A stretch of DNA of 34,485 bases from a virus (lineage: Duplodnaviria > Heunggongvirae > Uroviricota > Caudoviricetes). The position numbers and the translations under genes were made by a program. The notes below the pieces were generated by a model. That model was not told the DNA's origin. It made no database searches and saw only the letters and a program-made list of their open reading frames with translations. This document shows, piece after piece, positions 1-34,485 of the stretch; position 1 is the stretch's first letter, and every line of letters begins with the position of its first letter. The stretch lies in the IMG/VR virus record IMGVR_UViG_2531839587_000015; one strand, given 5' to 3'.

Positions 1-54
1 TTAAAATCCCTCGGCGTTCGCGCTGTGCGGGTTCAAGTCCCGCTCCGGGTACCA
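1..54 (+). tRNA. leuZ: 3' portion of tRNA-Leu(UAA), truncated by window start (anticodon loop, long variable arm, T-arm, CCA end)
   Basis: Sequence ttaaaatccctcggcgttcgcgctgtgcgggttcaagtcccgctccgggtacca matches the recalled 3' end of E. coli tRNA-Leu(UAA): T-arm GCGGG/CCCGC, GGTTCAAGTCC T-loop, terminal ACCA. Confidence 0.8.
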
Positions 55-206
55 TGGGAAAGATAAGAATAAAATCAAAGCAATAAGCAGTGTCGTGAAA
101 CCACCTTCGGGGGGGTTTTTTGTATTTGTATTTTGTGCAATGGCGGTGGAGTGGCGATGGTGTGGCGATATGCAGAAACAATAGTAGTGCACGTGCTGTT
201 TAAACT

Positions 207-254
207 CTAAGGATGAAGCCGAATTCTCCTGCAGCTCCTCCGTATTTCGCATAG
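207..254 (-). pseudogene. Hok-family toxin remnant: only the C-terminal ...LCEIR... codons remain; about 130 nt including the start codon are missing relative to the copy at 1067-1207
   Basis: Minus-strand translation gives LCEIRRSCRRIRLHP*. Flanking DNA aligns with the 3' end of the intact hok at 1100-1140, and the adjacent leader (255-365) aligns with 1255-1380. Confidence 0.5.
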
Positions 255-365
255 TGAACTAGGACCTCGGTTAAACAAAAATTTTTCTGGGATTTTTCCA
301 CTCGACTTCATTTTTCCTCCTGCCATCCACCAAAAGGTACCTGCGCTAATCTGTCTTTTTTAATC
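255..365 (-). repeat. hok/sok-like leader region, copy A (homologous to 1255-1380)
   Basis: Shared blocks cctcggttaaaca, tttccac, cctcc..ccatc..cc.aaagg.acc..cgc.taatct...tttttt with the region upstream of the intact hok ORF. Confidence 0.55.
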
Positions 366-593
366 TGACAACATCCTGAGAAAAGGCAAAATCGTCAGAT
401 TTACTGTTTTTCTGCTGCCTCGAATGCCGATGTCTGCAGCACTGATAAGAGCTCTATCTCTTTGATATAGATCTTTTTTTTGATGAATTGCACGGCATAT
501 TATCGTTATGACACCTTCTTGTTAAAGGTGTTGTACTCCACATCTCGATTTTATGATGTGGGTTATGATTGGTTAGTAATAGAGTGTATCGGT

Positions 594-875
594 ATGCGAT
601 GTGGTTTATTAATGGCAATCTGTTTTTGTTTGGTATCTTTTAGTGGGTATGCAGCAACAGGAAAGTCTGATGCTCAGATCAAGAAAGAAATAATTAAAGA
701 ATCCATTGAATCGTATCCAGGCAATTGTGCGTGTCCTTATAATCATGCAAGGAATGGTAGTAGATGTGGTAGACGCAGTGCATATAGCCGTACTGGAGGG
801 TATGACGTGGTATGTTATGAGAGTGATGTTACGGATGAAATGATCCGGCAATGGAAGCAGGAGAATGCTGAGTAA
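594..875 (+). CDS. Small secreted Cys-rich protein (signal peptide MRCGLLMAICFCLVSFSGYAA; motif CACPYNHARNGSRCGRRSAY resembling YHYH-type proteins); AT-rich gene
   Basis: ORF 480-875 in the track. An internal Met at 594 begins a typical signal peptide; the 38 residues before it look non-native. Low-GC coding sequence. Confidence 0.55.
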   Translation: MRCGLLMAICFCLVSFSGYAATGKSDAQIKKEIIKESIESYPGNCACPYNHARNGSRCGRRSAYSRTGGYDVVCYESDVTDEMIRQWKQENAE

Positions 876-952
876 TCACTTTTAACTGGTTTGTTTTGCG
901 AGCATTATGTGTGTTGTTAACGGTACCCTAGCTAAGTGAGAGCTCCAAAAGA

Positions 953-985
953 AAACCCGCAGTTTTTACGCTGCGGGTTTTCTTG
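953..985. terminator. Bidirectional rho-independent terminator (cccgcag / ctgcggg stem flanked by A-run and T-run)
   Basis: Hairpin aaaacccgcag-tttttacg-ctgcgggttttc lies between the convergent + strand gene ending at 875 and the - strand hok ending at 1067. Confidence 0.65.
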
Positions 986-1066
986 TTTGTGTCCATGGGA
1001 TAGGGTGCCACTTCGGCCAGCCTTAGCAACCGATTGACGGGGGATTGCTCCCCCGTCGCGGTTTCC

Positions 1067-1207
1067 TTACTGCTTACACTGTAAGAACGCCGCAAACTCC
1101 GCTCCCCAGAAGCTCATCCGTATTTCACACAGCGAACCGTGCAGCATCCAGATGATGAGGATTACCGTCACGCAGAACGTGATGGCCATAAGCGATTTTT
1201 GCGACAT
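1067..1207 (-). CDS. Hok/Gef-family type I toxin, 46 aa (MSQKSLMAITFCVTVILIIWMLHGSLCEIRMSFWGAEFAAFLQCKQ)
   Basis: Own translation; absent from the ORF track because it is under 60 aa. Single TM helix plus the conserved SLCE(I/L)R and AAFLxCK motifs of HokA-like toxins. AAGGAG Shine-Dalgarno 10 nt upstream. Confidence 0.75.
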   Translation of the reverse strand: MSQKSLMAITFCVTVILIIWMLHGSLCEIRMSFWGAEFAAFLQCKQ

Positions 1208-1254
1208 AGCGCTTGCTCCTTTTTTGGGGAGGCGCTAACCTATCACTTGCTAAG

Positions 1255-1385
1255 GTTAGATGGTCAGGGCCTCGGTTAAACAGAAATGTTTTCCGGGGCC
1301 TTTCCACATCTGGCCTTCGGGTATTCCCTCCAGCCATCAGCCGAAAGGCACCCGCGCGTAATCTATCGCTTTTTTGTTACTCCGG
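1255..1385 (-). repeat. hok/sok-like leader region, copy B (mok/sok/translational-activation region upstream of intact hok)
   Basis: Homologous to 255-365. The SD region is embedded in a GC-rich pairing context typical of hok mRNAs. Confidence 0.5.
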
Positions 1386-1397
1386 CAATTCAGCCTG

Positions 1398-1658
1398 TTA
1401 ATTCTGAGGTAAGGGCAAACTCATTTGGTTGTTTCCCCTGTGCGAAGCTGGCAGCTCATTCCACGGGATGCCCTCTGAAGAGTGAACGCCTGGGGCGTGT
1501 TTCGATGTGAATTTATGGAAAGCCTCCAGTGTTGAGAAGCATACGCCGCATTCCAGGTTGTTACACTGGTAATATTTTTTCCGCACGGTATCTGAATCAT
1601 TTTCCGAACGACTGGTGCGGATACGGGCAGATGCGCCACAAAGCGGACAACGAAACAT
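1398..1658 (-). CDS. ogr: Ogr-like zinc-finger late-gene transcription activator
   Basis: MFRCPLCGASARIRTSR...YYQCNNLECGVCF shows the CxxC...CxxxxC pattern and N-terminal similarity to P2 Ogr. GGGAGG SD 5 nt upstream of the ATG. Confidence 0.85.
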   Translation of the reverse strand: MFRCPLCGASARIRTSRSENDSDTVRKKYYQCNNLECGVCFSTLEAFHKFTSKHAPGVHSSEGIPWNELPASHRGNNQMSLPLPQN

Positions 1659-1761
1659 AGCGACCTCCCTTAACGTAGTACTGTCGCTAGTTTAGGCTGA
1701 ACTTACTCAGACTCCAACTGATAGTTCGCTTTGTTTACTGATGCCGTAGAAAGGTCTCTTA

Positions 1762-1792
1762 GCAAGAATAACCCCAGTTTAACACTGGGGTT
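1762..1792 (-). terminator. Rho-independent terminator downstream of the moron gene (ccccagt / actgggg stem, U-run on the minus strand)
   Basis: Hairpin aaccccagtttaacactggggtt followed on the minus strand by uuauucuug. Confidence 0.6.
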
Positions 1793-1807
1793 GCTTGCAA
1801 CAGAGCG

Positions 1808-2461
1808 TCAATTTTTAAGAGCGCCGATACAGAAAAATTGCATGACATTTTTCTTTATTGATTTAAATAGGCTAAATATTGTGATAGGTCTAAAGCTAGT
1901 CAACTCGCTGAATTCTTTTCTCATTTGGGAAAGTAACTGCCGACGTACTGATTCAATTTCTGCTGTTTGAGCTCTCAAATATCTTGAGAAATCAAGTAGT
2001 TCATCAGCTGTTTTGTTTTGGCTATTTATAAACGTAACAGGTTGCCCTGGCTTAGATATGAGAAAGAATTGATCAATTTTATCAAGTAATGGTGGAATTA
2101 TTTGTTTCCATTCAGCCCATTCTTTTTCACGATGAAACTCCAGGCTGTGCTGACATGCTCTGAGTTGCTGTATATCAATCGCCCAGACCTCACTCTCATC
2201 GAGGCAATCTTTCCATTTGCTAATTACATTAATGTCAAATTTTTTGTTCGGTCGATAATCTTCTTTGGCGCGCGCTTCCAGTATAGAGGCAAGGCTACCT
2301 GTATATTGCATCAAATTGGTAGATGCTCGGTTTACTAGCTCAGATATTCGATCTAGTTGAGTTGTTCTAATCTCAAGTGCTTTCTTTTTACGTTCATTTC
2401 GTAAAGCAAAATATGCAGCAAGGCAGACTGCAGCAACTGTGGCTGCTGGTTGCATATTCAT
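1808..2461 (-). CDS. Moron: membrane-anchored hypothetical protein, 217 aa (N-terminal TM helix QPAATVAAVCLAAYFAL + KKK, then a soluble alpha-rich domain); AT-rich
   Basis: ORF 1808-2485 in the track. Start placed at the Met at 2461, which has an AGGA SD 8 nt upstream. Lies between ogr and D, where P2 has no gene. GC clearly lower than the flanking phage genes. Confidence 0.6.
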   Translation of the reverse strand: MNMQPAATVAAVCLAAYFALRNERKKKALEIRTTQLDRISELVNRASTNLMQYTGSLASILEARAKEDYRPNKKFDINVISKWKDCLDESEVWAIDIQQLRACQHSLEFHREKEWAEWKQIIPPLLDKIDQFFLISKPGQPVTFINSQNKTADELLDFSRYLRAQTAEIESVRRQLLSQMRKEFSELTSFRPITIFSLFKSIKKNVMQFFCIGALKN

Positions 2462-2655
2462 AACATGGATCCTCTGACATGGCATTTATGGGCGCTATTT
2501 CAGCAGTAATCATTTGTGTGTAAATTTGTTTGCTACAAATTAACATATTCTAATGTAAGGTACTTCTGATTTTGACACTTGGTAGGCTGTCAGATTGGTT
2601 ATGATTCTTGCTGTAGGCGCGTTAACAAATGTCAGGGCTAATGCATCTAAGTTGT

Positions 2656-3753
2656 TTACTCTGTTTCTGCTATCCATTCCGGGATTTTTGCTTCAAGCTC
2701 AAGCTGAGTGGTAAAGCCGCTGTTGTCAATGGTGTGCTCGGCTTTTGCAATAATCCAGTCCTGATTGTCAATGTCACTTTTGAAGCCTGTCACCGTGCCA
2801 TGCATTTCGGGATAGAGTTCTGCACGTCCACACGCCAGCGTGATGGAGAACGCTGCGGCTCCGCGTTGTAGCTGCTGCCACTTTGCCGCCGCTGCACGTC
2901 TTGCTGCCTGCTCGTTCTGATAAGTCTTGCGTAACACAAACACGTTGCCTTCCGCGCCTTCCATATAGTCGCCTTCCCGGCTGCTGCTTTTCTCCTTTTT
3001 CGGTTTGCGGCGTTTCACGCTGACTTTTTTCTTTTTCCCGTAATTAAGATCAAGCCAGTAGGCGCGTACACCCGTATACGCCTCGCGGTCAGCAATGCGG
3101 AACTGATGGCGATCGCCGCTGCTGCGTGTGATGGCAACGATGGCAAGGCTGGCCCTGTGCGTTCACGCCACCGCCGGCATGATGAATAACAGATTACCGC
3201 TTTTTACCGTGGTGATTGCGCCCAGCATTTCCGCCATGCGCGTAAGGAAGGACATGTCGCTTTCTTCAGTCTGGTCGGCGTGGTCGATTTCGATATCCAT
3301 CAGCATTTCGCTGATTTGCGGTTTCAGACCATACCGATGAGCGATGGCGGATACCACACGCTCAATGGTCACATCATGCCAGGACACCTCACGTTTAACG
3401 TTAAATTCATCCCGAAAATCTGCGCTTCTGGCTGAAACAGTCAGCCTGTCCGGCGGTCCTTCGTGAGCGATTTCATCAACAATGTAAGTGCCTTTTTCTG
3501 TCAGCGGTTCTCCTTTCCAGCCAATGAGAACCGTCAGGCGCGCGCCCCGTGGCGGTAGCTGCAACTGACCATCCGCATCATCCAGCGTGATGGTGAGCTG
3601 GTCCGCTTCAAATCCCCGGTTGTCGGTCAGTGACAGGCTCATCAGGCGCTCTGCCACGCCGGACAGCGTTTTCCCCTCCGCGAGAATATCAAAATCCGGC
3701 ATTTTCACGGGGTCTGTGCTCTGACTGAGCAATTGCATGGTGGTGTCGGTCAT
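2656..3753 (-). pseudogene. D: gpD tail protein (P2 D homolog) interrupted by a single in-frame TGA at 3163-3165
   Basis: Track ORFs 3163-3774 and 2656-3018 are in the same frame. The stretch between them translates without stops (THRASLAIVAITRSSGDRHQFRIADREAYTGV...) and matches gpD on both sides. Start placed at the Met at 3753 with a GGGAGGG SD. Confidence 0.8.
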
Positions 3754-3909
3754 CTTTCCCTCCCTGTGCGGCATGGTCGCATGTGCGTGCGGAGGGGGTT
3801 ACTGCTTTTTGTTGTCGCCGTGGCGGGAGAACGGCGCAGGGGTGAGATTACGCGCGTGGTGGGTGATGATTGTTGCCGAATCATTTAACGGATACAAGGG
3901 GCTGAAGCT

Positions 3910-5087
3910 ATGAGTGAAACTCGTTTTCATGGTGCCCGTGTTACGGAAATACCGACCTGGTAACAGCGATTAAGATGTTGATTCCAGGTTATCGGTATCG
4001 TGGCAACGGCGGATGATGCGGAGCGAGCTGTTCCCGCTGAACAAGCCCACACTGCTGACCCGCGTCAATGACGTGCTGGGAAAATGCGGACAACGGGACG
4101 CTTTATCGTGCGCTTAAGGCCATCGCAGACCAGGTGAGCACAAAGGTGATCGTCGTTCGCGTGGCTGAACACAAAGAAGAAGACGGAAAGACGCAGGATC
4201 AACTGGTTATCGGTGGTTCTGAGGATGACGGCAGCTATACGGGGATGTATGCGCTGCTTGTTGCAGAGCAGGATGAAAGCATCGGATACCGTCCGCGTAT
4301 TCTGGCCGCGCCGGAGCTGGACACGGAGGCGGTAACAAAATCCCTGTGCGTGATTGCGGGTAAACTGCGCGCGTTTGTGTATGCCTCATGTCACGGCTGT
4401 AACACGATGGCTGAGGCGATTACCTACCGCCAGAAATTCAACGAACGTGAGGTGATGCTCTTATGGCCGGACTTCATCGCCTACAACCCGAAAAGTGGCA
4501 AAAACGAAACGTTCCCCGCGCCTGCCTATGCGTGCGGCCTTCGTGCGTACATTGACCATGAGCAGGGCTGGCACAAATCGCTGTCCAACGTTCCGGTTAA
4601 AAATGTGCTGGGGATGTCCAGGCATGTGTTCTGGTCGTTGCAGGCCGAAGACAGTGATGCCAACAGCCTCAACAACAAAGAAATCACGACCATTATTCGT
4701 CGCAATGGGTTCCGCTTCTGGGGCAACCGCACACCGGAAACGAACGCCTACATCTTTGAGGTGTATACCCGAACCGCACAGGTGCTGGCTGATTCAATTG
4801 CGGAAGCGCAGTTTGAAACCATCGACAGTCCACTGACGCCTGCGAACGTGAAAGATGTTATCAGTGCCATCAGGGCAAAACTGGATTCACTGGTTACTGC
4901 CGGGAAACTGATTGGGGCGTCGTGCTGGTATGACGTGGTGGATAACGGCACCACGAATTTACGTCAGGGGCGCGTGCGTATTCGCTACAAATATACGCCT
5001 GTTCCCCCGCTGGAAGACATGGAGCTTTACCAGTCGTTTACTGATGAATTCTTTGGTCCCGCATTTGCGGTGCTGGGAGGTGCCTGA
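3910..5087 (+). pseudogene. FI: gpFI tail sheath; the first ~175 bp are broken by stops and at least two +1 indels; intact sheath frame from about 4083 to 5087
   Basis: ATG at 3910 with an AAGGGG SD encodes MSETRFHGARVTEI and then hits TAA at 3961. Sheath-like segments IGIVATADDAE, ELFPLNKPTLLTRVNDVLGK and NADNGTLYRALKAIADQ lie in three different frames. Downstream 335 aa match the P2 sheath. Confidence 0.8.
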
Positions 5088-5599
5088 TGGCTGTACCAAA
5101 ACATCTTCGCTTTTTTACGCTGTTTGTGGATGGTGAAAACGAAGTGGGTAAGGTGACGTCCGTCACTCTGCCTAAGCTGACGCGCAAAACCGACAGCTAC
5201 CGGGGTGGTGGCATGATGGGTGCGGTAAGTATTGATCTCGGTCTGGACGACTCCGCGCTTGATGCGAGCTTTGTCATGGGGGGCGCAGTTCGTGAGCTGT
5301 TCCTTAAGTATGGCGGCACGATTGACGGCACGCTGCTGCGTTTTGCGGGTGAATACTACACCGATGCAGAAAGCGACCTGTATGAAGTCGAAATGCGCGG
5401 ACGTGTGACGGAAATTGATATGGGGGAAGCCAAACAGGGCGAAGCCACATCACACACTTACGCCATTAAAAACACCTACTACAAGCTGAGTGTTAACGAT
5501 CGCCCGTTGTGGGAGATTGACCTGCTGAACTTCATTTACCGGAAGGACGGCAAGGACATTGTGCCCGATCGCATCCGTTCCGCGCTTGGGCTTGGCTGA
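5087..5599 (+). CDS. FII: gpFII tail tube protein
   Basis: 170 aa. Start overlaps the FI stop (TGATG). Similar in length and sequence to P2 FII (LPKLTRK..YRGGGM..DLGLDD motifs). Confidence 0.9.
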   Translation: MAVPKHLRFFTLFVDGENEVGKVTSVTLPKLTRKTDSYRGGGMMGAVSIDLGLDDSALDASFVMGGAVRELFLKYGGTIDGTLLRFAGEYYTDAESDLYEVEMRGRVTEIDMGEAKQGEATSHTYAIKNTYYKLSVNDRPLWEIDLLNFIYRKDGKDIVPDRIRSALGLG

Positions 5600-5653
5600 T
5601 AAGTAATATGCAGGCGGCGCAGTGCGTCGCCTCTGACTGAAAGGAGTTTCCTG

Positions 5654-6019
5654 ATGAAAGAGACGAAAAACATCGATACCGAAAACACGGTAGTTACTGA
5701 CACTGTGAAAGAAACCAGTGAGCGTGGCGTAAAACTTACCCAACCAATTGAGCGAGGCGGCGAAAAAATCACGTATGTGGAGATCACCGGGGCTATTGAG
5801 CAGGCTGGATCTCTGCGAGATTTGTCGCTGTCTGATGTGCTGAATCTGAAAGCGGAATCCATGTTTACGCTGCTGTCACGCGTGACATCACCGCGACTGG
5901 ATGAAGTGACGATCAAAAAAATGGCATCCCGTGACTTTATTCAGTTATGTGTGGTTGCCGTAAATTTTTTGAGCGGTGCGGACTCTGGCGGGAAGAACGA
6001 ACAGGCGACGGAAGCCTGA
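5654..6019 (+). CDS. E: gpE tail assembly chaperone
   Basis: 121 aa with AAGGAG SD. Sits immediately upstream of the tape measure gene and contains the TTTTTTG slippery site near its 3' end. Confidence 0.85.
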   Translation: MKETKNIDTENTVVTDTVKETSERGVKLTQPIERGGEKITYVEITGAIEQAGSLRDLSLSDVLNLKAESMFTLLSRVTSPRLDEVTIKKMASRDFIQLCVVAVNFLSGADSGGKNEQATEA

Positions 6020-6183
6020 TCACGGTTGTGTGCTTTGAGCACATAGAAGACTTTGTGGCGGATATTGCCGCCATTTTTAACTGGTCGCCCGCCGAAATCT
6101 TCATGATGACGCCCGGCGAAGTGGTTAGCTGGCGTGAGCGGGCGGCACTTCGCAGCGGGAATGCAGACAATGAAGACTCTTGA
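5654..6183 (+). CDS. E': gpE+E' fusion made by programmed -1 ribosomal frameshift
   Basis: The -1 frame ORF (track 5947-6183) continues past the E stop. Slippery heptamer TTTTTTG at 5965-5971 as in P2 E/E' (analogous to lambda G/GT). Confidence 0.7.
5965..5971 (+). other. Slippery heptamer T6G for the programmed -1 frameshift (E to E')
   Basis: aaaTTTTTTGag. The 0 frame reads N-F-L, and the -1 frame is open to 6183. Confidence 0.7.
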
Positions 6184-8977
6184 TATCCGGGTCGCTTTCA
6201 GCGCCGTTGACAGGCTGACCCGGCCTGCCGAAAACGCCCGCCGCCTGATGGGGCAGTTTGGTGACTCCATCCAGCGAACGCAGGGGGCGATCAAAAATCT
6301 CGAGCGTCAGGCGCGATCATTTGAGCGCGCCCGTGACGCTGTCAGTAAAGCGGATGCGGGCATCGTGAAAGCACGACGCCAGCTTAACGCCCTTAATCAG
6401 TTACAACGCACGGGTACAGTGCTCAGCGAAAAACAACAAAAGCTGATGCAGCAGTTAAGCACCCGGCTTGAACGCCTGAATGAATCGCGCACACGGGAAA
6501 TTCAGAAAATGCGGGAACTTGGCGGAGAACTGAAACGCCACGGCATTTCCCTGACAGGCAGCGATAACACCATCCAGCAGGCCATCAGACGCACCGAACA
6601 GTACAACAACCAGCTTGAACGCGAACGGCAGGCGCTTGCGCGTGTAACGCAGGCGCGTGAGCGGTATTCGCGCGCGCAGGAAAACGCGGGAAAACTGAAA
6701 ACAGGTGGTGCGCTGGCAATTGGTGCGGCAGCGGCTGGCGGCTATGCTGCCGGGCGTTTTTTGCAGCCTGCGATCGGGTTCGGCAAAGAGATGTCCCGCG
6801 TTCAGGCACTGACGCGAATCGACAAAAACAGCCCGCAGTTTAAGGCGCTGCGTGAGCAGGCGTTAAAACTTGGCTCTGAAACACAGTTTACTGCGAGTGA
6901 TGCCGCCAGTGGGCAGAGCTTTCTGGCAATGGCTGGTTTTACTCCGCAGGCCATTCAGGCCGCATTGCCCGGTGTTCTTAATATGGCGCTGGCAGGTGGC
7001 GTCGAACTCGGCGAGACGGCTGATATAGGCTCCAATATCCTCACACAGTTCAATCTGACAGCCGATCAAATGGACCGGGTTGGCGATACGCTGACAGCGG
7101 CATTCACCCGGACCAATACTGATTTACGCGCGCTGGGCGAAACCATGAAGTATACCGGTCCGGTTGCCGCAAAACTTGGTATCAGTCTTGAAGAAGCGAC
7201 GGCCATGGCCGGGATGCTTGCCAATAATGGTCTTCGCGGAAGCGATGCTGGTACGGCCATGCGCGCAAGTCTGTCCCGCCTAGCATCACCGCCAAAAGCT
7301 GCGGCTGATGCGCTGAAAGAGCTGGGGGTGTCAGTTGCTGACGCCAGAGGCAAAATGCGCCCGATGGAGGATGTGCTGCTTGATCTCTATAAGGCGACAC
7401 AAAAATACGGACAGGTGGACCAGGTCTCCTTCTTCAAGGACATCGCCGGAGAAGAGGCGTTCGTTGGTTTGCAGACGCTTGTTGCGGCGGCTGGTTCAGG
7501 AGAGCTGCAAAAACTGACCAGAGAATTGCAGGGGGCAAAGGGAGAGGCCGATCGCGTTGCAAAAGTAATGGCCGATAATCTTGATGGGGACCTGAAAAAT
7601 CTCGACAGCGCATGGGAAGGTCTTCGTATTCGCATCAGTGATCTGGTTGACGGTCCGCTGCGTTCTGTCACGCAGTGGCTCACGCGGGTGCTTGAAAAAA
7701 TCACCTCGCTGGCGCAGGCCCATCCGGTACTGACACGCCAGCTACTGATAGCAGGCGGTGCGTTGCTGGCAATGACTGCAACGATTGGCTCGTTGTCGCT
7801 GGTTATTGGGGTGCTTTACGGAAAGCTGGCCACCCTGCGTCTTGGTTTTGACATTCTTACCCGGTCAATGAATGTCGTCAGGGTGTTGCCTGCGCTGTGG
7901 GGAATGCTGACGGGTTCCGTTTCTTTGCTGGGAGGCGCTATCGGAGCGCTGTTCAGTCCGGTTGGTCTTATCGTGGCTGCGCTTGCCGGAGCTGCCGTTC
8001 TTATCTGGAAATACTGGGATCCCATCAGGGCATTTTTTGCCGGGGTGTTCAGCGGGATTATGGAAAGGCTGACCCCGTTGCGCGAAACCTTTGAACGGTT
8101 TGGCCCTGTTTTTGACGCAATCGGAAGCGGGATCAGCCAGGTGTTTAACTGGTTTAAATCGCTGCTGTCACCGATGGAGTCCAGCAAGGAAACGCTGGAT
8201 AAATGTACCAGTGCTGGCGAGATATTCGGTAACGTTCTTGGCGGTGCGTTACAACTTGTTCTGACACCTGCAAAAATGCTACTGGATACGCTGGCGTGGA
8301 TACTTGAAAAACTTGGCGTCCTTCCGGATGAAGCGGAAAGGGCGCGCAAGAAAATCGAAGACGCACAGCGTGCGGCCATTCTTCAGGACAAGGTTGCCTT
8401 ACTTCAGGGGGACCTGGCGAAAATCAATCCGCCGAAGCCTGTGGAAAATGGCAATGGCACCGGAGGTGATAACCCCAAAGACAACAAACCGCTCACAGAC
8501 AGCAATACCGGGACGCTACGCAGACTCAGCAAAATTGCTGATAACACAGGTAAGCTGGTTGATGAGACGAAAAAACGCATTGGCCCCGGCGATATTGTCT
8601 TTAAGAACCTGCCCCGCGCACTTGCTGTTCGTGGGGAGTGGCAGGAGCGGAAGATTGCGCAGGTCAGTAAGCCTGCCCCCGCAATTAATATCACCCCCGT
8701 GGTCCCGGCTCCGCTGCCTCCGGCGCTGGTCCCTGTTGTTGCGGCCAGCTCCCGCCCGGTGGCGGAGGCCATACGATCTCCAGTGGCATCAGTTCCTGTA
8801 ACTTCCCGTAACCGGGAGCCTGTTGCCTCCGGATTTGGTGGTGAAATTCATGTTCATCTGCATAACGTTGTTACGCAGAATCCCCGCGAACTGGCGAAAC
8901 TGGTCGGTGAAATGGTCAGGGCAGAAATGGAACGGCGTGCCCGTGCCGGGCGTGGCAGTTTTTACGATAAAGATTGA
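6161..8977 (+). CDS. T: gpT tail tape measure protein (about 939 aa)
   Basis: Long alpha-helical protein with internal hydrophobic segments, directly after E/E'. Start is uncertain: in-frame ATGs at 6134, 6161 and 6170. Confidence 0.9.
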   Translation: MQTMKTLDIRVAFSAVDRLTRPAENARRLMGQFGDSIQRTQGAIKNLERQARSFERARDAVSKADAGIVKARRQLNALNQLQRTGTVLSEKQQKLMQQLSTRLERLNESRTREIQKMRELGGELKRHGISLTGSDNTIQQAIRRTEQYNNQLERERQALARVTQARERYSRAQENAGKLKTGGALAIGAAAAGGYAAGRFLQPAIGFGKEMSRVQALTRIDKNSPQFKALREQALKLGSETQFTASDAASGQSFLAMAGFTPQAIQAALPGVLNMALAGGVELGETADIGSNILTQFNLTADQMDRVGDTLTAAFTRTNTDLRALGETMKYTGPVAAKLGISLEEATAMAGMLANNGLRGSDAGTAMRASLSRLASPPKAAADALKELGVSVADARGKMRPMEDVLLDLYKATQKYGQVDQVSFFKDIAGEEAFVGLQTLVAAAGSGELQKLTRELQGAKGEADRVAKVMADNLDGDLKNLDSAWEGLRIRISDLVDGPLRSVTQWLTRVLEKITSLAQAHPVLTRQLLIAGGALLAMTATIGSLSLVIGVLYGKLATLRLGFDILTRSMNVVRVLPALWGMLTGSVSLLGGAIGALFSPVGLIVAALAGAAVLIWKYWDPIRAFFAGVFSGIMERLTPLRETFERFGPVFDAIGSGISQVFNWFKSLLSPMESSKETLDKCTSAGEIFGNVLGGALQLVLTPAKMLLDTLAWILEKLGVLPDEAERARKKIEDAQRAAILQDKVALLQGDLAKINPPKPVENGNGTGGDNPKDNKPLTDSNTGTLRRLSKIADNTGKLVDETKKRIGPGDIVFKNLPRALAVRGEWQERKIAQVSKPAPAINITPVVPAPLPPALVPVVAASSRPVAEAIRSPVASVPVTSRNREPVASGFGGEIHVHLHNVVTQNPRELAKLVGEMVRAEMERRARAGRGSFYDKD

Positions 8978-8989
8978 GGAGTCATGGCC

Positions 8990-9478
8990 ATGATGATGAT
9001 CTACGGCATGTTTGTTTTTGAGCTGCGCACGCTGCCGCATCAGCAGTTACAGCAAAACAAAAGCTGGCGGCATGTGAAAAATGAACGCGTTAACCGTTCA
9101 GCAAGCTGGCAGTATATCGGTGCAGGTGATGATCGCATCGTTCTTTCTGGTGTGCTTTATCCTGAAATTACTGGCGGCGAAGTGTCGCTGTCGCTGCTGA
9201 CCACGCAGGCGTATACCGGACGCCCCTGGCCTCTGATTGATGGCGTCGGGCAGATTTACGGCATGTATGTCCTGACCGAAACGAGTACGACCCGCTCTGA
9301 GTTTGATCGCTACGGTAAGGCGAAAAAGATAGAATTTTCACTAACCCTTGAACGCTGTGATGAGGATTTGCGGGAACGCCTGCAATCCTCATCATTCAGC
9401 GATATGCTGTCCGGCTTCAAAGATAAGGTGACATCATCTCTTAACAGCGCGGCCAGTTCAGTTAAAGGGCTGTTCTGA
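8990..9478 (+). CDS. U: gpU tail protein
   Basis: MMMIYGMFVFELRTLP... resembles the P2 U N-terminus. GAGGA SD 9 nt upstream of the ATG at 8990. Confidence 0.85.
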   Translation: MMMIYGMFVFELRTLPHQQLQQNKSWRHVKNERVNRSASWQYIGAGDDRIVLSGVLYPEITGGEVSLSLLTTQAYTGRPWPLIDGVGQIYGMYVLTETSTTRSEFDRYGKAKKIEFSLTLERCDEDLRERLQSSSFSDMLSGFKDKVTSSLNSAASSVKGLF

Positions 9479-9487
9479 TTAACGCAA

Positions 9488-9520
9488 AACCGCTAATGGT
9501 CAGATTAGCGGTTCTTTCTG
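9488..9520. terminator. Rho-independent terminator between convergent U and tail-fiber-assembly genes (perfect 10-bp stem aaccgctaat / attagcggtt)
   Basis: aaccgctaat-ggtcag-attagcggtt followed by ctttctg. Confidence 0.7.
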
Positions 9521-9599
9521 AAAGTGTTTCTCTGGAGCTGATAAAAACGTATTCCTCCTGAGAAGATTAAAATTTCTTATCAGGGAGCAGGAGAATAGC

Positions 9600-10010
9600 C
9601 TACGCCTCCGGCAGTTCAGGCCAGATGACATCCGGTGCGGTGCTGGTATCTGTTGCCGTCACCGCGTCGATATAATCCAGCACAACGTTAAGTCGGGTAG
9701 TTTCTTCTTGCGTCAGTTTGCGCCCGGCCTGCAGCTTTAACTGAATCACGCTGATATTGACCATTGCTGCGTCTATCAGCGACTGTTTTTTCTGTTCAGC
9801 GTCAGCTACCAGTTCATCATGAGAACGTTCCGGAGTGGGCGGCGCAGTAAATCCCCCGTCTGAATACGCCCAGCCGATTCCGGGCTGCTCACTGATATCA
9901 GAAATATTAATGAGCTGTAGATTATCCGGCACAGTGAATTCAGCCTCGCCATCCCAGGCAATTACATTCACAACCATCCCATTTTCAATAACTGCATATG
10001 ACGCATTCAT
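9600..10010 (-). CDS. Tail fiber assembly chaperone (gpG/Tfa-like)
   Basis: C-terminal ...DVIWPELPEA is typical of Tfa proteins. Start ATG overlaps the H stop (TAATG). Confidence 0.75.
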   Translation of the reverse strand: MNASYAVIENGMVVNVIAWDGEAEFTVPDNLQLINISDISEQPGIGWAYSDGGFTAPPTPERSHDELVADAEQKKQSLIDAAMVNISVIQLKLQAGRKLTQEETTRLNVVLDYIDAVTATDTSTAPDVIWPELPEA

Positions 10011-11911
10011 TATGCAAACTCCTCGATAATACAAATCCCTGCAGCGCCTTTCCCGCCCGTCATACTGGCTCCGCTATAACCAGCATCGTATGCACCACCA
10101 CCGCCTGAACCATATGCCTTACCGCTAACACCACCGCCAGCGCCTGCGCGTCCACCGCCGCCCCAGTGCGATGTTCCGCCTTCACCGCTGACGCTGATAT
10201 TCCCGGACTGACCGTCGCCTCCATTTCCACCAGTGATGTTGATACCGCCAGTACTTGGCACACCGCCGTTACCACCGTTCGTGTTTGTGACTCCTACTTT
10301 CCCGCCGCCTTCACCGCCAGGGGCTATTACCGTTCCGAACGAGCTATCACCGCCCTTGAGGCCGTTCGTCGCACCAACACCGCCGCCCCCACCTGCGCCG
10401 ATAGTGACAGGATAACTATCCTTCGTCAGGATCAGCGTGACAATTGCTGTTCCCCCAGCCCCACCGCCAGCACCGAAAAACGTTTCGTTATTGGATGTAG
10501 CCTGGCAGCCGCCCCCACCGCCACCGCCGCCCGTTATTGTGACCCTGATTCGTTTTGTTCCTGGCGTCGGGGTGTACGTACCTGATGACGTGAAAATTCG
10601 AGTGTTTACAAGGCGTCCAACATATCCGTTTGAATCGCTCAGGCCAAGGTCAGCAGTGGTAGGTTTAATATGTGAACTGTAAATTACATAGACCGCTCCA
10701 TCTGTCAGGCCTGTCGGTTTATTCGCTGTATAAGTTGGTGATGTATGAATCGTTACGCTGGCGTTACTGGTATAATCCCACTGGATATTTACACCCGTGG
10801 CGTAACCACCTATTTCAACATAAACATCATAGGTATCACCGGATGTATTCACCCATGCAAAATTAGTAAATCCAACCGATGTCCGTCGCCATAACGCACC
10901 AGTAAGACCTTTTGGATTCCCATTTCCCGCACGAAGAACAAGTTCAGATATACCAGCCTGCATAGGGGAGTTAACATTATATCCAGAACCACCAATCAGG
11001 CTTATGTAAACTACGGAACTTGCCTGTGGCATGGTTACAGTTGCCAGCTTGAACCATCCTGCACCACCAATAAAAGACATGGTTGTTGAATTTGTTGCAC
11101 CAATATTGCGCAGGAATAATCTTTTATCAGGAATATCCGCACCGTTCTGATCTTTCTGAAGACGTTTCTCAGCATTGTCATAGGCAGACTTCACCGCTTT
11201 CGGTGTTGCGGCCAGCGTTTCAGAAGTGCTATTGGTGGCGCTACTGAGCTGGACAAGACCTTTTCGCGCTGTGGTCGCGTCCTGTGCGGTATATTTCCCG
11301 TTAGCAAGGTCATATGCTGTCTTTACCGCCTTTGGCGTTGCCGCAAGCGTTTCAGAATCGCTGTTGGTTGCGCTGCTTAACTGAGTAAAACCTTTTGCGG
11401 TCAGCGATGCATCCGGGTGTCGTCGTGACTGTTCGTGTTCTGAGATTTTGTCATCCACATATTTACGGGTCGCCAGTACCACCGACGGGTCGATTTTCAG
11501 CGTGATGGCTTCGGTATTCGAGACAGCCAGAATCATGCGGATAGTCTGGGTACGACCACTGCCTTCCTGCAACTGCGGTTTGTACGTTTCCGGGCAATTC
11601 GCCACCGCAATGAGTACGCCTTCATCATCATAAAGCCCAATCTCACGGATCCAGAATCCTCCCTCGTTTTCAGGGATAATTTGTTCCGCAATAATCTGGC
11701 TCTGATTGTTAGGGTCAACACTCAGAAGATTCAGCGGTGCAATGCGTTTCTGGTTAATCAGTTTTGTTTGTGCAGGGTCTGGTGTTGGTAACACACCATT
11801 TGCATCACCAACGGCCATTTGCGTCAGATTCAGCTTACTGCCGAGCATCGTCGCGTTAGCCAGTCGTGCCGCGCCCTGATTAGTCAGAATGGCGTAGTAT
11901 TTCACTGTCAT
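10010..11911 (-). CDS. H: gpH tail fiber protein with internal repeats and a Gly-rich C-terminal receptor-binding region
   Basis: 633 aa. Conserved P2 H-like N-terminus (MTVKYYAILT...). Duplicated QLSSATNS.SETLAATPKAVK.AYD motif. C-terminal poly-Gly-rich domain. Confidence 0.85.
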   Translation of the reverse strand: MTVKYYAILTNQGAARLANATMLGSKLNLTQMAVGDANGVLPTPDPAQTKLINQKRIAPLNLLSVDPNNQSQIIAEQIIPENEGGFWIREIGLYDDEGVLIAVANCPETYKPQLQEGSGRTQTIRMILAVSNTEAITLKIDPSVVLATRKYVDDKISEHEQSRRHPDASLTAKGFTQLSSATNSDSETLAATPKAVKTAYDLANGKYTAQDATTARKGLVQLSSATNSTSETLAATPKAVKSAYDNAEKRLQKDQNGADIPDKRLFLRNIGATNSTTMSFIGGAGWFKLATVTMPQASSVVYISLIGGSGYNVNSPMQAGISELVLRAGNGNPKGLTGALWRRTSVGFTNFAWVNTSGDTYDVYVEIGGYATGVNIQWDYTSNASVTIHTSPTYTANKPTGLTDGAVYVIYSSHIKPTTADLGLSDSNGYVGRLVNTRIFTSSGTYTPTPGTKRIRVTITGGGGGGGGCQATSNNETFFGAGGGAGGTAIVTLILTKDSYPVTIGAGGGGGVGATNGLKGGDSSFGTVIAPGGEGGGKVGVTNTNGGNGGVPSTGGINITGGNGGDGQSGNISVSGEGGTSHWGGGGRAGAGGGVSGKAYGSGGGGAYDAGYSGASMTGGKGAAGICIIEEFA

Positions 11912-12516
11912 GCGTTTACTCTCAGATTATCAATTAAATGAATGACCGGGGCAGGGAAATAATCCCCTTCGACAATAATGGACTCCGGGGTGTAGGGATA
12001 AACCGTCAGGGCATCGCCGTGATAGCATCCCGTACCAACGAAAATATTTCCGTTCACACTCAGGCTGATCGCCAGCCCTGTCAGATGGCGACTTACTGGT
12101 TTTGCATCCGCAATAAGGCGCTCAAGTTCCTGATACATTTCATCTGTGATGCCCTGATCAAGTACTCCGACAACAATGCGAAATGTTCCCGGCTCCTCGT
12201 TGAGTTGCCACCACTCCTTTACTTCAATCAGGTAGCCGAGAGGCTCCACGGCTCTTCGCAGTGCGCTGATGGTCCCTTTGTGTCGGTGTATCAGCCATGC
12301 ATCACGAATAACCTGTCGCTTTGTCTCTTCCGGCCAGTTGCGATCCCAGCGGTCAACGGAAAATGCCCAGGCGAGATAAGGCAGCAGATGCACCGGGCAG
12401 GTGTCCGGCGACCACAGCGTGTTGAGGTCTACCGGAATGTCTGTAATGCGCGTTCCGACGGCTTCGGCACAACGCATGAAATTGCTGGCTGATGGTGGTA
12501 ACAGCGAATTACTCAT
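11908..12516 (-). CDS. I: gpI baseplate protein
   Basis: NPDTCP..LLPYLAWAFSVDRWD motif matches P2 I. The track ORF extends to 12549; start is uncertain. Confidence 0.85.
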   Translation of the reverse strand: MSNSLLPPSASNFMRCAEAVGTRITDIPVDLNTLWSPDTCPVHLLPYLAWAFSVDRWDRNWPEETKRQVIRDAWLIHRHKGTISALRRAVEPLGYLIEVKEWWQLNEEPGTFRIVVGVLDQGITDEMYQELERLIADAKPVSRHLTGLAISLSVNGNIFVGTGCYHGDALTVYPYTPESIIVEGDYFPAPVIHLIDNLRVNA

Positions 12517-13405
12517 TGCGCCCACCTTCGCTGATGGTGAACGACTCACAGCGCGCCGCCTGTATGTCGCTGATGGCCATATTCTGTGTGGGTTCGATTA
12601 TCTCCACGCGTTGCACACCGTGCACATGCAGTGCGGCAGCAATGGCGGACAACGCCACGTCCTGACCGATAAGCCCCTGCTCAGCCAGCCACTTCCTGAA
12701 CGACGATTCCGCCGCGGCCAGAATAGGTTCGGATTCCGGGCCGGGGTAAAAGTACAGTTTTGCATTCAGCCGCCATGTCACGATTCTGGCACTCTGTACG
12801 GTCAGGCGGTCGGCCACAGGGCGGGTATCCTCTGCATTCAGAACGGCGCGAACGGTATTAAGCAACGCCTCCGTTGCTGTGCCGTCGCCCTCAGTGGACA
12901 GGATGGAAACCGTCACATTTGCCGGAGACGGGCTGATAGCCCGCGCATCACGCACCAGACCGCTGGCGCTGCGGGCAAAATACTCGTATGCACCTGACGG
13001 GCCAGCAACACTCAGGCCGTCGTACGCCCGTTGCGCCCGCAGTCTCAGCGAGGTGTCGCTCTCCATCACCGCGTCGGTGGTATCCGTTGCCGGAGTGATA
13101 ACCAGGCGCTTTGTGTTCATATTGCCTGCGAGGTTGTCCAGGTCTGTCCCGGCGCTGTGGCTTAACATGCAGGCGCGTGCACCCTCATTGACCCGCTGGC
13201 GTAACAGCATTTCACGAAACGACATGGTTTGAGCGATAACGTTAAGGGGTTCCGATTCCAGCTCCAGCGCGGCGGAAACGGCTTCACGCTGTTCGGCGGG
13301 ATAGGACGCAATCATCATGGCTTTTGTGTCAGCCAGAATTGCTTCAAAGTCAGGCTCCGCGATGATGGCGGGTTCCGGTAACTGGGAAAGGTCAACGGCG
13401 GGCAT
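12509..13405 (-). CDS. J: gpJ baseplate protein
   Basis: 298 aa. Position and length match P2 J (302 aa). Confidence 0.85.
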   Translation of the reverse strand: MPAVDLSQLPEPAIIAEPDFEAILADTKAMMIASYPAEQREAVSAALELESEPLNVIAQTMSFREMLLRQRVNEGARACMLSHSAGTDLDNLAGNMNTKRLVITPATDTTDAVMESDTSLRLRAQRAYDGLSVAGPSGAYEYFARSASGLVRDARAISPSPANVTVSILSTEGDGTATEALLNTVRAVLNAEDTRPVADRLTVQSARIVTWRLNAKLYFYPGPESEPILAAAESSFRKWLAEQGLIGQDVALSAIAAALHVHGVQRVEIIEPTQNMAISDIQAARCESFTISEGGRNE

Positions 13406-15399: not shown

Positions 15400-15705
15400 G
15401 GCTTCACGCAGGGAATCAGTTTCAGCATGGTTGTTATCCTCGTTGTTCAGTCGTTGCAGCCTGCGCTGTTCCAGTAATTCAATGGCCCGTTTATCAGCGT
15501 TACAGGTTTCCAGTGCATCCAGAAGGCGGTCGCCCCATATACCGAGATTTCCCCATGTGGGAGTATCAGGGAAGGGGGGAGGCGTTACCGGTATGGTCAG
15601 CGTCTGCGGTATAAGCCGGACTGACGGCGCTGGCAGTGGCGCGTTCTGCGTGCCTGCGCAGCCTGTCAGTAAAACGAGCGTCAGGCAAAGCGTGGGCGCA
15701 TTCAT
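15400..15705 (-). CDS. lysC: LysC-like o-spanin lipoprotein (Rz1 analog), embedded in lysB in another frame; its reading frame continues into R without a stop
   Basis: MNAPTLCLTLVLLTGCAGTQ is a lipoprotein signal with lipobox, followed by a Pro-rich segment. No stop codon before the R coding region. Confidence 0.55.
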
Positions 15706-33429: not shown

Positions 33430-33495
33430 CCCTTTATTATTCTTACGTTTTACAAACTGGGAATGTCTTTCCTCGTTTCACCGGAGGGCTTGCCA

Positions 33496-34485
33496 ATGGC
33501 AATTAAGGCACTCGATGGTGGACGGTATAAAGTGGATGTTAGACCGCGTGGCCGAAGTGGACGTCGGATTCAGCGGATTTTTAAGAAAAAGGCAGATGCA
33601 GTGGCCTTTGAGCGCTATGTTCTCAGCCACATGCACGATAAGGAATGGCTTGAAAAGCCAACAGAGCAACGTCATCTCTCAGATCTGCTTCCATTATGGT
33701 GGGAATTGGGTGGACGCAATAAGCCATATGCTAACGGCGTTCTAACCAGATTGAAAAAAATCATCAAAGAAATGAATGATCCAAGGGTTAGCCAGATTAA
33801 TGCTCGTTTCATGGCAGCTTATCGAAGCTCCCGTTTATCCTTAGGAGTAAAAGAATCTACTGTTCGGCGTGATGAGTCGGATCTCGGAGGAATGTTTACA
33901 CTCCTGGCAAATGCCGGGGAATTTCACGGAGAAAATCCACTCCGCGCCCTCCCCTCTTTGAAACGAAAATCACCCGAAATGACGTACCTCACCACGGAAG
34001 AAATCGCCAAATTGCTGGATGCAGTAAGCGGTGATGCCCGGCGGATTACGCTACTTTGTCTCAGTACTGGGGCGAGATGGGGAGAAGCGAAAAATCTGCG
34101 CGCGGAACACATCATCAATAATCGCGTGACGTTTAACAAAACTAAAAACGGAAAAGTTCGAATTATTCCTGTCTCTGATGAGGTTGTTAGTGAGATCAAA
34201 ACAAAGAAATCCGGCCTTTTGTTTGACGTCAATTATGAGGAATATCGCAAGGTGCTTCGCAGTGTTAAGCCAGACCTACCAAAGGGACAGGCTGTACATG
34301 TTCTACGCCATACCTTTGCAGCTCACTTTATGATTAATGGAGGAAATATACTTACGCTCCAGCGAATTATGGGGCACGCCACGATTCAGCAAACTATGAC
34401 CTATGCGCACCTCGCTCCTGATTTCCTCCAGGATGCAATTTCACTTAATCCGTTAAAAGGAGGCATCCACATTTCATCCACATAA
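33496..34485 (+). CDS. int: P2-type tyrosine integrase
   Basis: MAIKALDGGRYKVDVRP... N-terminus like P2 Int. C-terminal catalytic region contains the R...HxxR...Y tyrosine recombinase pattern (..VLRHTFA.H..). Track ORF begins at 33463. Confidence 0.9.
   Translation: MAIKALDGGRYKVDVRPRGRSGRRIQRIFKKKADAVAFERYVLSHMHDKEWLEKPTEQRHLSDLLPLWWELGGRNKPYANGVLTRLKKIIKEMNDPRVSQINARFMAAYRSSRLSLGVKESTVRRDESDLGGMFTLLANAGEFHGENPLRALPSLKRKSPEMTYLTTEEIAKLLDAVSGDARRITLLCLSTGARWGEAKNLRAEHIINNRVTFNKTKNGKVRIIPVSDEVVSEIKTKKSGLLFDVNYEEYRKVLRSVKPDLPKGQAVHVLRHTFAAHFMINGGNILTLQRIMGHATIQQTMTYAHLAPDFLQDAISLNPLKGGIHISST

What the first reader, a model, noticed from the sequence alone, without database searches (positions are those of the whole stretch)
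3163..3165. Single in-frame TGA interrupts tail gene D
The two D-homologous ORFs (3163-3753 and 2656-3018) are in the same frame, and the intervening 144 nt translates cleanly into gpD-like sequence (..AITRSSGDRHQFRIADREAYTGV..). The only lesion is one TGA at 3163-3165 (forward tca). Either a nonsense mutation has inactivated an essential tail gene, or this is a sequencing error.
Basis: seen in the sequence. Interest (0 to 1): 0.5.

Follow-up and report, generated by a model that had tools for sequence, protein, structure and literature searches.

The report
Assembly artefact splits prophage tail gene
The stop codon that splits tail gene D of this P2-like E. coli prophage is there, but it comes from three missing single bases that look like an assembly error where two near-identical prophage sequences were merged, so it is most likely not a real mutation.

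Summary
The in-frame TGA at 3163-3165 (minus strand) is real in the deposited sequence and is the only stop in the 366-codon D frame. It is not a point nonsense mutation. Intact relatives carry the same bases, read as GGC GTG AAC (G-V-N). The window lacks three single bases within 41 nt (after + strand 3135, 3146 and 3175). The first loss exposes the out-of-frame TGA and the third restores the frame.

No other sequence searched shares these deletions: about 1,095 complete E. coli genomes, 90 viral contigs, and ten assemblies of the same prophage at the same chromosomal site. The same 1 kb holds seven more private 1-nt deletions in the sheath gene, and two more lie in the capsid gene. There are no private insertions and one private substitution.

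Nine or ten of the 11 deletions in the D/sheath stretch fall on sites that are SNP-polymorphic among relatives (P about 1.5e-11). A sibling assembly, L092, keeps all ten missing bases but drops single bases at other discordant sites.

The best reading is a consensus artefact from two merged prophage haplotypes in draft assembly GCA_000354835.2. Restoring three bases gives a gpD with 362 of 367 aligned positions identical to phage P88. Interest is low; this is not a real feature.

The parts
2656..3753 (-). Tail gene D (P2 gpD-type baseplate hub). It is interrupted as deposited. With three bases restored it is a 366-aa ORF.
   Evidence: tblastn of P88 gpD covers residues 1-366 at 3753-2659. Pfam PF05954 hits both halves. 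The repaired ORF is identical to P88 gpD at 362 of 367 aligned positions.
3163..3165 (-). It is an out-of-frame reading of the conserved G-TGA-AC (GTG AAC = Val-Asn in intact genes).
3175..3176 (-). Deletion 1 (junction): ATGCC[C/A]GG became ATGCCGG. It shifts the frame 10 nt upstream of the TGA. The lost base is a G/T (+ strand) polymorphic site in relatives.
   Evidence: Absent from 91 of 91 reference contigs. Allele counts are T 34 and G 52.
3146..3147 (-). Deletion 2 (junction): CAGCC[G/A]TTG became CAGCCTTG.
   Evidence: 91 of 91 references have a base here. Allele counts are C 83 and T 3 on the + strand.
3135..3136 (-). Deletion 3 (junction): TCGTT[T/C]GCC became TCGTTGCC. It restores the original frame, for a net loss of 3 nt.
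   Evidence: 91 of 91 references have a base here. Allele counts are G 72 and A 14 on the + strand.
3136..3175 (-). The 40-nt stretch read out of frame, giving ..AVA*THRASLAIVA instead of ..GGGVNAQGQPLPSFA.
3910..5087 (+). Tail sheath gene. Its N-terminal part is broken by seven private 1-nt deletions (after about 3946/3949, 3973, 3987, 4022, 4025, 4087/4089 and 4094/4097). Only a 339-aa ORF (4068-5087) is left.
   Evidence: tblastn splits the match over three frames. Gap list. The best E. coli hits are identical except for 7 gaps, 521/528.
18331..19378 (-). Major capsid protein gene, frameshifted by two 1-nt deletions after 18720 and 18722. Both are on polymorphic sites.
15422..15423 (-). A 1-nt deletion in an A4 run at codon 3-4 of tail gene R (ATG CTG AAA[A] CT). 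It is a homopolymer site and is not polymorphic in the panel.
3100..4225 (.). A patch where the consensus switches between two natural haplotypes. 'B' is the prophage normally at this chromosomal site; 'A' is a P88-like variant. All ten clustered deletions lie inside this patch. Outside it the window follows haplotype B.
   Evidence: Three-way comparison of the window with L081 and L221. Sibling assembly L092.

Best explanation
The split D gene is an artefact of how draft assembly GCA_000354835.2 (contig AQEG01000113.1) was built.

In a roughly 1.1-kb stretch (window 3100-4225), and again in the capsid gene, reads from two nearly identical P2-like prophage sequences were merged into one consensus. 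The two sequences could be a second prophage copy in the same genome or a mixed template. Where they differ by an isolated SNP, the consensus emitted no base.

Three such dropped columns lie within 41 nt of gene D. The first puts the ribosome out of frame, so the conserved bases G-TGA-AC are read as a stop. The third restores the frame, which makes the lesion look like a lone in-frame TGA.

The real prophage most likely has an intact 366-aa D gene.

Shown: the three deletions, that they are private to this assembly, their coincidence with polymorphic sites, the chimeric haplotype pattern, and the different outcome in a sibling assembly. Inferred: that a second template existed, and the exact consensus mechanism, for example each allele falling below majority support in a gapped multiple alignment or partial-order-graph consensus.
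For: (1): the window differs from intact D genes by three 1-nt deletions. The TGA bases are conserved in all relatives.

(2): of 1,097 complete E. coli records with this 121-nt piece, none reaches 99% identity. The best are 121/124, identical apart from the three gaps; the deleted allele has zero exact matches in the viral, genome and metagenome collections. The intact allele is in 90 viral contigs.

(3): there are ten window-private 1-nt deletions between 3135 and 4097, no private insertions and one private substitution (3366). No private indels occur in 4100-9500, where 60-80 references give coverage.

(4): 8.1 kb of chromosomal flank compared with EC130 has 67 mismatches and only one gap. 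The assembly is therefore not generally indel-ridden.

(5): nine or ten of the 11 deletions in the D/sheath stretch, and both in the capsid gene, fall on columns that are SNP-polymorphic in 87-113 relatives. The hypergeometric P is 1.5e-11 for the D/sheath stretch.

(6): two natural haplotypes are identical to window 3900-4150 apart from the gaps, and they carry opposite bases at all seven gap sites (ACCCAGG versus GTTTGAT).

(7): L092 is a sibling assembly of the same prophage, colinear over 12,676 nt and 99.66% identical. It has all ten bases the window lacks. It has its own ten missing bases at other discordant sites (window positions 3268-3388 and 4190).

(8): ten other assemblies of the prophage at the same chromosomal site have all the bases across the parts they cover. 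Seven span D and sheath with both full length (366-aa D and 394-aa sheath where called in full). One has an intact D beside an IS-truncated sheath. Two are deletion remnants that still carry the three D bases.

(9): the window follows haplotype B outside 3100-4225. Inside, it is a chimera of A alleles, B alleles and dropped columns.

(10): restoring the three bases gives a 366-aa protein identical to P88 gpD at 362 of 367 aligned positions.
Against: No reads were available, so neither mixed alleles nor doubled coverage at these sites was observed directly.

A second P2-like prophage in this particular genome was not demonstrated. The sequencing platform and assembler are unknown to me.

Not every discordant site is dropped. 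The adjacent triple difference CCAG/AAAA at 3149-3152 is kept as one allele.

Two deletions (after 4094 and 15422) lie in homopolymers at sites that are monomorphic in most of the panel. They may be ordinary homopolymer miscalls.

Broken D genes are also seen in about 7 other draft contigs of the panel. Real decay of such prophages therefore does occur, or the same artefact is widespread.
Confidence: 0.88

Rival explanations
1. The three 1-nt deletions are real, as are those in the sheath and capsid genes. The prophage would be a decaying, defective remnant whose D gene is a true pseudogene.
For: Defective P2-like prophages exist at this very site. EC130 lacks the head genes, and L226 and L228 are deletion remnants. 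Phage 520873 and strain 510016 carry an IS in the sheath gene. About 9% of panel D copies are interrupted.
Against: There are only deletions and no insertions: ten within 1 kb against one private substitution. The deletions sit on sites polymorphic in relatives, P about 1e-11. A sibling assembly has these bases and loses others. None of about 1,095 genomes or the same-site relatives share any of them. No known mutational process removes exactly the bases at which two homologues differ.
Confidence: 0.06
2. The deletions are ordinary random sequencing error, from low coverage or homopolymer and compression miscalls. Mixed haplotypes are not involved.
For: Some sites are short homopolymers (CCC to CC, TTT to TT, AAAA to AAA, GGGG to GGG). 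Related long-read-style records such as phage 520873 show homopolymer deletions in D.
Against: This does not explain why the deleted columns are the polymorphic ones. It does not explain the A/B chimeric pattern confined to 3100-4225, or why the sibling assembly fails at the complementary discordant sites. The flanking 8 kb and positions 4100-9500 are free of such errors.
Confidence: 0.04
3. This is the first reader's main reading: a single-base nonsense substitution created the TGA in an otherwise intact gene.
For: In the deposited sequence the frame before and after the stop is the same, and there is only one stop.
Against: The bases TGA are identical in every intact relative. The window is 3 nt shorter than those relatives, and the 14 codons around the stop are out of frame relative to them.
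Confidence: 0.005
4. The TGA is decoded (readthrough, selenocysteine or programmed frameshifting), or the two halves function as separate proteins.
For: None beyond the shared frame.
Against: The stop is absent from all relatives, so there is no conservation. The peptide around it is out-of-frame sequence. Each half alone falls below the Pfam gathering score, 24.9 and 29.0 against 30.1.
Confidence: 0.005

Closest known systems
gpD of Escherichia phage P88 (YP_009113094.1, Xuanwuvirus, Peduoviridae), the P2 gene D-type tail baseplate hub (Pfam PF05954)
   Same: After the three bases are restored, the window encodes a 366-aa protein identical to P88 gpD at 362 of 367 aligned positions. The gene order matches: hok, ogr and D face a divergent sheath-tube-E-E'-T-U block.
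   Different: As deposited, the window gene is split by an exposed TGA. The window also carries an extra 217/225-aa gene between D and ogr that P88 lacks.
R2 pyocin baseplate hub protein (PDB 6u5h chain C)
   Same: It is the closest solved structure by sequence to the intact D homologue: E 5.6e-41 over residues 18-356. It has the same role as the central hub of a contractile injection machine (established knowledge of the family).
   Different: It is a tailocin component, not a phage component, and is related only at the family level.
D gene of Escherichia phage 520873 (NC_049344.1), annotated as three fragments
   Same: It is a close relative (98.1% identity) whose D gene is also broken only by 1-nt deletions in the deposited record.
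   Different: Its deletions are at three other positions (alignment columns 579, 775 and 856), all in short homopolymers. None is shared with the window.
Sibling assembly IMGVR_UViG_2529293067_000016 (L092)
   Same: It is the same prophage: colinear with window 1-12676, 99.66% identical, and showing the same kind of single-base losses.
   Different: It keeps all ten bases the window lacks. It loses ten others at window positions 3268-3388 and 4190, and it carries the B-type alleles where the window carries A-type alleles or gaps.

Membership tests
Phage_GPD (PF05954) / P2 gpD baseplate hub | Match to the family HMM above the gathering score (30.1 bits) | tested here: met
   The intact homologue with the ancestral sequence scores 63.2 bits. 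The two window fragments alone score 24.9 and 29.0, each below the cut-off, but they cover complementary parts of the profile (48-144 and 211-304).
Phage_GPD (PF05954) / P2 gpD baseplate hub | Uninterrupted ORF of about 366 aa | tested here: not met
   The deposited sequence has one internal stop and a 14-codon out-of-frame stretch. The feature is met only after three bases are restored.
Phage_GPD (PF05954) / P2 gpD baseplate hub | Position in a P2-like tail gene cluster next to ogr | tested here: met
   tblastn of all P88 proteins against the window. Ogr_Delta is at 1398-1658.
Point nonsense mutation | Relatives carry a sense codon at the same three aligned bases, differing by one substitution | tested here: not met
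   The three bases are TGA in all relatives and lie across two codons (GTG AAC). The window differs by deletions only.
Collapsed-repeat / mixed-template consensus artefact | Lesions are private to one assembly and absent from close relatives | tested here: met
Collapsed-repeat / mixed-template consensus artefact | Lesions coincide with sites at which two haplotypes differ, and the local consensus is a chimera of the two | tested here: met
   (P 1.5e-11)
Collapsed-repeat / mixed-template consensus artefact | An independent assembly of the same element resolves the same sites differently | tested here: met
   L092
Collapsed-repeat / mixed-template consensus artefact | The read pile-up shows two alleles and raised coverage at the affected sites, and a second copy is present in the genome | not testable with these tools
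   No reads and no access to the rest of assembly GCA_000354835.2.
Programmed recoding at a stop codon | The stop and its context are conserved among relatives | tested here: not met
   Zero of about 1,095 genomes and zero of 90 viral contigs carry the stop in frame.

The most novel reading that the evidence does not exclude
The single-base losses are real. They would record an unknown process that deletes the mismatched base when two co-resident, nearly identical prophages form heteroduplex DNA during recombination. Sister isolates would then carry different sets of deletions at the sites where the two prophages differ.
Probability: 0.02. Interest if true: 0.6.

Novelty: not a real feature. 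Interest (0 to 1): 0.05.

Why it matters
It matters mainly as a caution. Taken at face value, the window describes a prophage with broken D, sheath and capsid genes, and possibly R. It would be scored as defective, and the D lesion would look like a tidy nonsense mutation.

The evidence indicates the element is probably an intact P88-like prophage, and that the breaks were introduced when two prophage haplotypes were merged.

The signature seen here is a practical way to flag such artefacts without reads. It consists of 1-nt deletions only, located on sites polymorphic among relatives, with sister assemblies failing at different sites. There is no new biology.

Tried and rejected
(1) I looked for the deleted allele elsewhere. 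Exact-pattern scans of viral, genome and metagenome collections found nothing. A pattern requiring only the first deletion also found nothing.

(2) I searched the literature for the assembly accession (AQEG01 / GCA_000354835) to learn the platform and assembler. There were no hits.

(3) I looked for a paper stating that graph or MSA consensus drops heterozygous SNP columns. I found only general statements that mixed alleles are hard for such consensus methods and nothing citable for the exact mechanism, so that step stays marked as inference.

(4) I considered systematic methylation-motif errors at Dcm CCWGG sites. Only the first D deletion could involve such a site (CCAGG in some relatives) and the others do not, so I rejected this.

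(5) I considered general low assembly quality. I rejected it because the 8-kb chromosomal flank and positions 4100-9500 have essentially no private indels.

(6) I could not show a second P2-like prophage in this genome, because the tools give no access to the other contigs of the assembly.

(7) Pfam and PADLOC scans of the unannotated ORFs near D gave nothing for the 225-aa ORF.

Full report
**What is in the sequence**

On the minus strand, the frame that starts at the ATG at 3753 runs to the TAA at 2656-2658. It contains a single internal stop, TGA at 3165-3163. Both halves hit Pfam PF05954, Phage_GPD. tblastn with phage P88 gpD covers residues 1-366.

**What the lesion is**

I aligned the region with phage P88, phage 520873 and E. 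coli strains EC130, 510016 and 4/1-1. The window is 3 nt shorter than intact genes because of three separate 1-nt deletions within 41 nt.

- The ancestral minus-strand sequence is ATG CCC GGC GGT GGC GTG AAC GCA CAG GGC CAG CCG TTG CCA TCG TTT GCC ATC. It encodes M P G G G V N A Q G Q P L P S F A I.
- The window has ATGCC-GGC, CAGCC-TTG and TCGTT-GCC.
- The first deletion shifts the frame, so the conserved G-TGA-AC is read as a stop.
- The third deletion restores the frame.

The peptide AVA*THRASLAIVA is thus out-of-frame sequence, not gpD. No base of the TGA is mutated. Putting back G, C and G (+ strand, after 3135, 3146 and 3175) gives a 366-aa protein identical to P88 gpD at 362 of 367 aligned positions. 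The closest solved structure to the intact homologue is the R2 pyocin hub, 6u5h_C, at E 5.6e-41.

**Is it shared with other sequences?**

It is not.

- Of 1,097 complete E. coli records (1,095 genomes) that hold the 121-nt piece around the stop, none is 99% identical or better. The best are 121/124, identical except for the three gaps.
- The deleted allele has no exact match in the viral, genome or metagenome collections. An allele with only the first deletion has none either.
- The intact allele occurs in 90 viral contigs.

**Where the window comes from**

The truncated 196-aa product is on record on one contig only: AQEG01000113.1 of NCBI draft assembly GCA_000354835.2. The window is 100% identical to that contig over the 13,753 nt available.

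The element is a P88-like (Xuanwuvirus, Peduoviridae) prophage. It lies next to pgsA and the glyW-cysT-leuZ tRNA genes.

**The lesion is one of a cluster**

Against a panel of 85-91 related contigs, the window has ten private 1-nt deletions between 3135 and 4097. Three are in D and seven are in the N-terminal part of the sheath gene. That stretch has no private insertions and a single private substitution.

- The best E. coli matches to the sheath piece are identical except for seven gaps, 521/528.
- Two more deletions frameshift the capsid gene, after 18720 and 18722.
- One more lies in an A4 run at the start of tail gene R.
- By contrast, positions 4100-9500, covered by 60-80 references, have no private indels.
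- The 8.1 kb of chromosomal flank differs from EC130 by 67 substitutions and one gap.

The assembly is therefore not generally poor. The errors are local.

**The telling pattern**

The deleted columns are the polymorphic ones. In the D/sheath stretch, 51 of 1,161 columns have a minor allele of at least 10% in 87 relatives. Nine of the 11 window deletions fall on such columns (hypergeometric P = 1.5e-11). At a 3% threshold, ten of 11 do. The eleventh deletion counted here, after 3755, is a natural indel that 11 of the panel contigs share. Both capsid deletions also lie on polymorphic columns.

In window 3900-4150 there are natural haplotypes identical to the window apart from the gaps. They carry opposite bases at all seven gap sites: ACCCAGG in 14 contigs and GTTTGAT in L092.

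**Sibling assembly and same-site relatives**

L092 (IMGVR_UViG_2529293067_000016) is a sibling assembly of the same prophage. It is colinear with window 1-12676 and 99.66% identical. It has all ten bases the window lacks. It also has ten missing bases of its own, at window positions 3268-3388 and 4190. Most of these sit on sites that are polymorphic in the panel or differ between the two haplotypes.

Ten further assemblies carry the same prophage at the same chromosomal site. I found them through the 217-aa gene next to D. All of them have the missing bases across the parts they cover.

- Seven span D and sheath, with both full length (366-aa D and 394-aa sheath where called in full).
- One, strain 510016, has an intact D beside an IS-truncated sheath.
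- Two are deletion remnants that still carry the three D bases.

**Three-way comparison**

I compared the window with L081 (haplotype A) and L221 (haplotype B, the same-site type). Outside 3100-4225 the window follows haplotype B. Inside that patch it is a chimera of A alleles, B alleles and dropped columns.

**Interpretation**

The simplest account is that two near-identical prophage sequences were merged during assembly, and that isolated discordant columns were lost from the consensus. The second sequence could be a second P2-like prophage in the genome or a mixed template.

I infer the mechanism from my own knowledge; I have not shown it here. In gapped-alignment or partial-order-graph consensus, two alleles that each have less than majority support can both be skipped. 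I do not know the platform or assembler, and literature searches for the accession found nothing.

**Rivals**

- *Real pseudogenisation.* This is possible in principle, because defective remnants exist at this site. It does not explain the deletion-only spectrum, the coincidence with polymorphic sites, or the complementary failures in the sibling assembly.
- *Generic random error.* This does not explain the polymorphic-site coincidence or the chimeric pattern.
- *Point nonsense mutation.* Refuted by the alignment.
- *Recoding.* Excluded by the complete lack of conservation.

**Comparison with what is known**

The gene is an ordinary P2 gpD-type baseplate hub. The element is an ordinary P88-like prophage. 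The lesion is best filed as an assembly artefact. There is nothing novel here.

**Verdict**

Noticed in passing
window 3910-5087 (+): The tail sheath gene is broken by seven private 1-nt deletions at 3946-4097, leaving a 339-aa ORF (4068-5087). The best E. coli matches are identical except for the seven gaps. This is the same artefact signature as in D.
   Followed up: yes
window 18331-19378 (-), deletions after 18720 and 18722: The major capsid gene is frameshifted by two 1-nt deletions 2 nt apart. Both are at sites polymorphic in 113-120 relatives (G/A and C/T).
   Followed up: yes
window 15422-15423 (-): Tail gene R loses one A from an A4 run at codon 3-4, giving a stop after 10 codons. An internal ATG 10 codons downstream stays in frame. 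The site is not polymorphic, so this is probably a plain homopolymer miscall.
   Followed up: partly
window 1808-2485 (-): A 217/225-aa ORF lies between D and ogr with no Pfam or PADLOC hit. It is present in EC130, 510016 and phage 520873, and its exact protein is indexed in 440 blocks of the assembly collection. It is absent from P88 and strain 4/1-1. It is a widespread cargo gene of unknown function at the D-ogr junction.
   Followed up: partly
L002 1549-2649 (EC130); also L003, L006, L220, L223: In many RefSeq E. coli genomes the intact 366-aa D ORF is annotated only from an internal start (263-266 aa, 'contractile injection system protein, VgrG/Pvc8 family'). A 93-nt antisense 'hypothetical protein' pseudogene fragment is annotated over the omitted part. 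This looks like an annotation quirk, not a lesion; the full EC130 ORF translates cleanly.
   Followed up: partly
L092 (IMGVR_UViG_2529293067_000016), equivalent to window 3268-3388 and 4190: The sibling assembly of the same prophage has ten missing bases of its own in D and sheath, mostly at sites polymorphic among relatives. This suggests the artefact is a property of that sequencing project's pipeline and may affect other genomes from it.
   Followed up: partly
L001 (phage 520873, NC_049344.1) 1548-2645; L003/L229 (strain 510016): The RefSeq phage record 520873 has D split into three CDSs by three homopolymer 1-nt deletions. It also has an IS21-family IS100kyp element inserted in the sheath gene. 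Strain 510016 has the same IS but an intact D.
   Followed up: partly
window about 3000 (-), lysine-rich linker of D: There is a natural in-frame 9-nt indel polymorphism (KRRKPKKEK versus KRRKPPKPKKEK). 46 of 87 relatives carry the longer form.
   Followed up: no
L228 2559-3806 and L226 (same-site prophage remnants); L097 (EC130): Several genomes carry deletion remnants of this prophage at the same site. In L228 a capsid fragment is fused to a D fragment (415-aa product with Phage_cap_P2 and Phage_GPD hits). EC130 lacks most head genes.
   Followed up: no
window 1070-1207 (-) and 33463-34485 (+): A hok/gef-type toxin gene sits next to ogr at the left end. At the right end is an integrase only 50% identical to that of P88, consistent with a different attachment site (the leuZ tRNA region beside pgsA).
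   Followed up: no
panel contigs L020, L025, L033, L061, L083: Five further IMG/VR contigs have D interrupted by non-3n indels or a stop. I did not examine whether these are real or artefacts.
   Followed up: no
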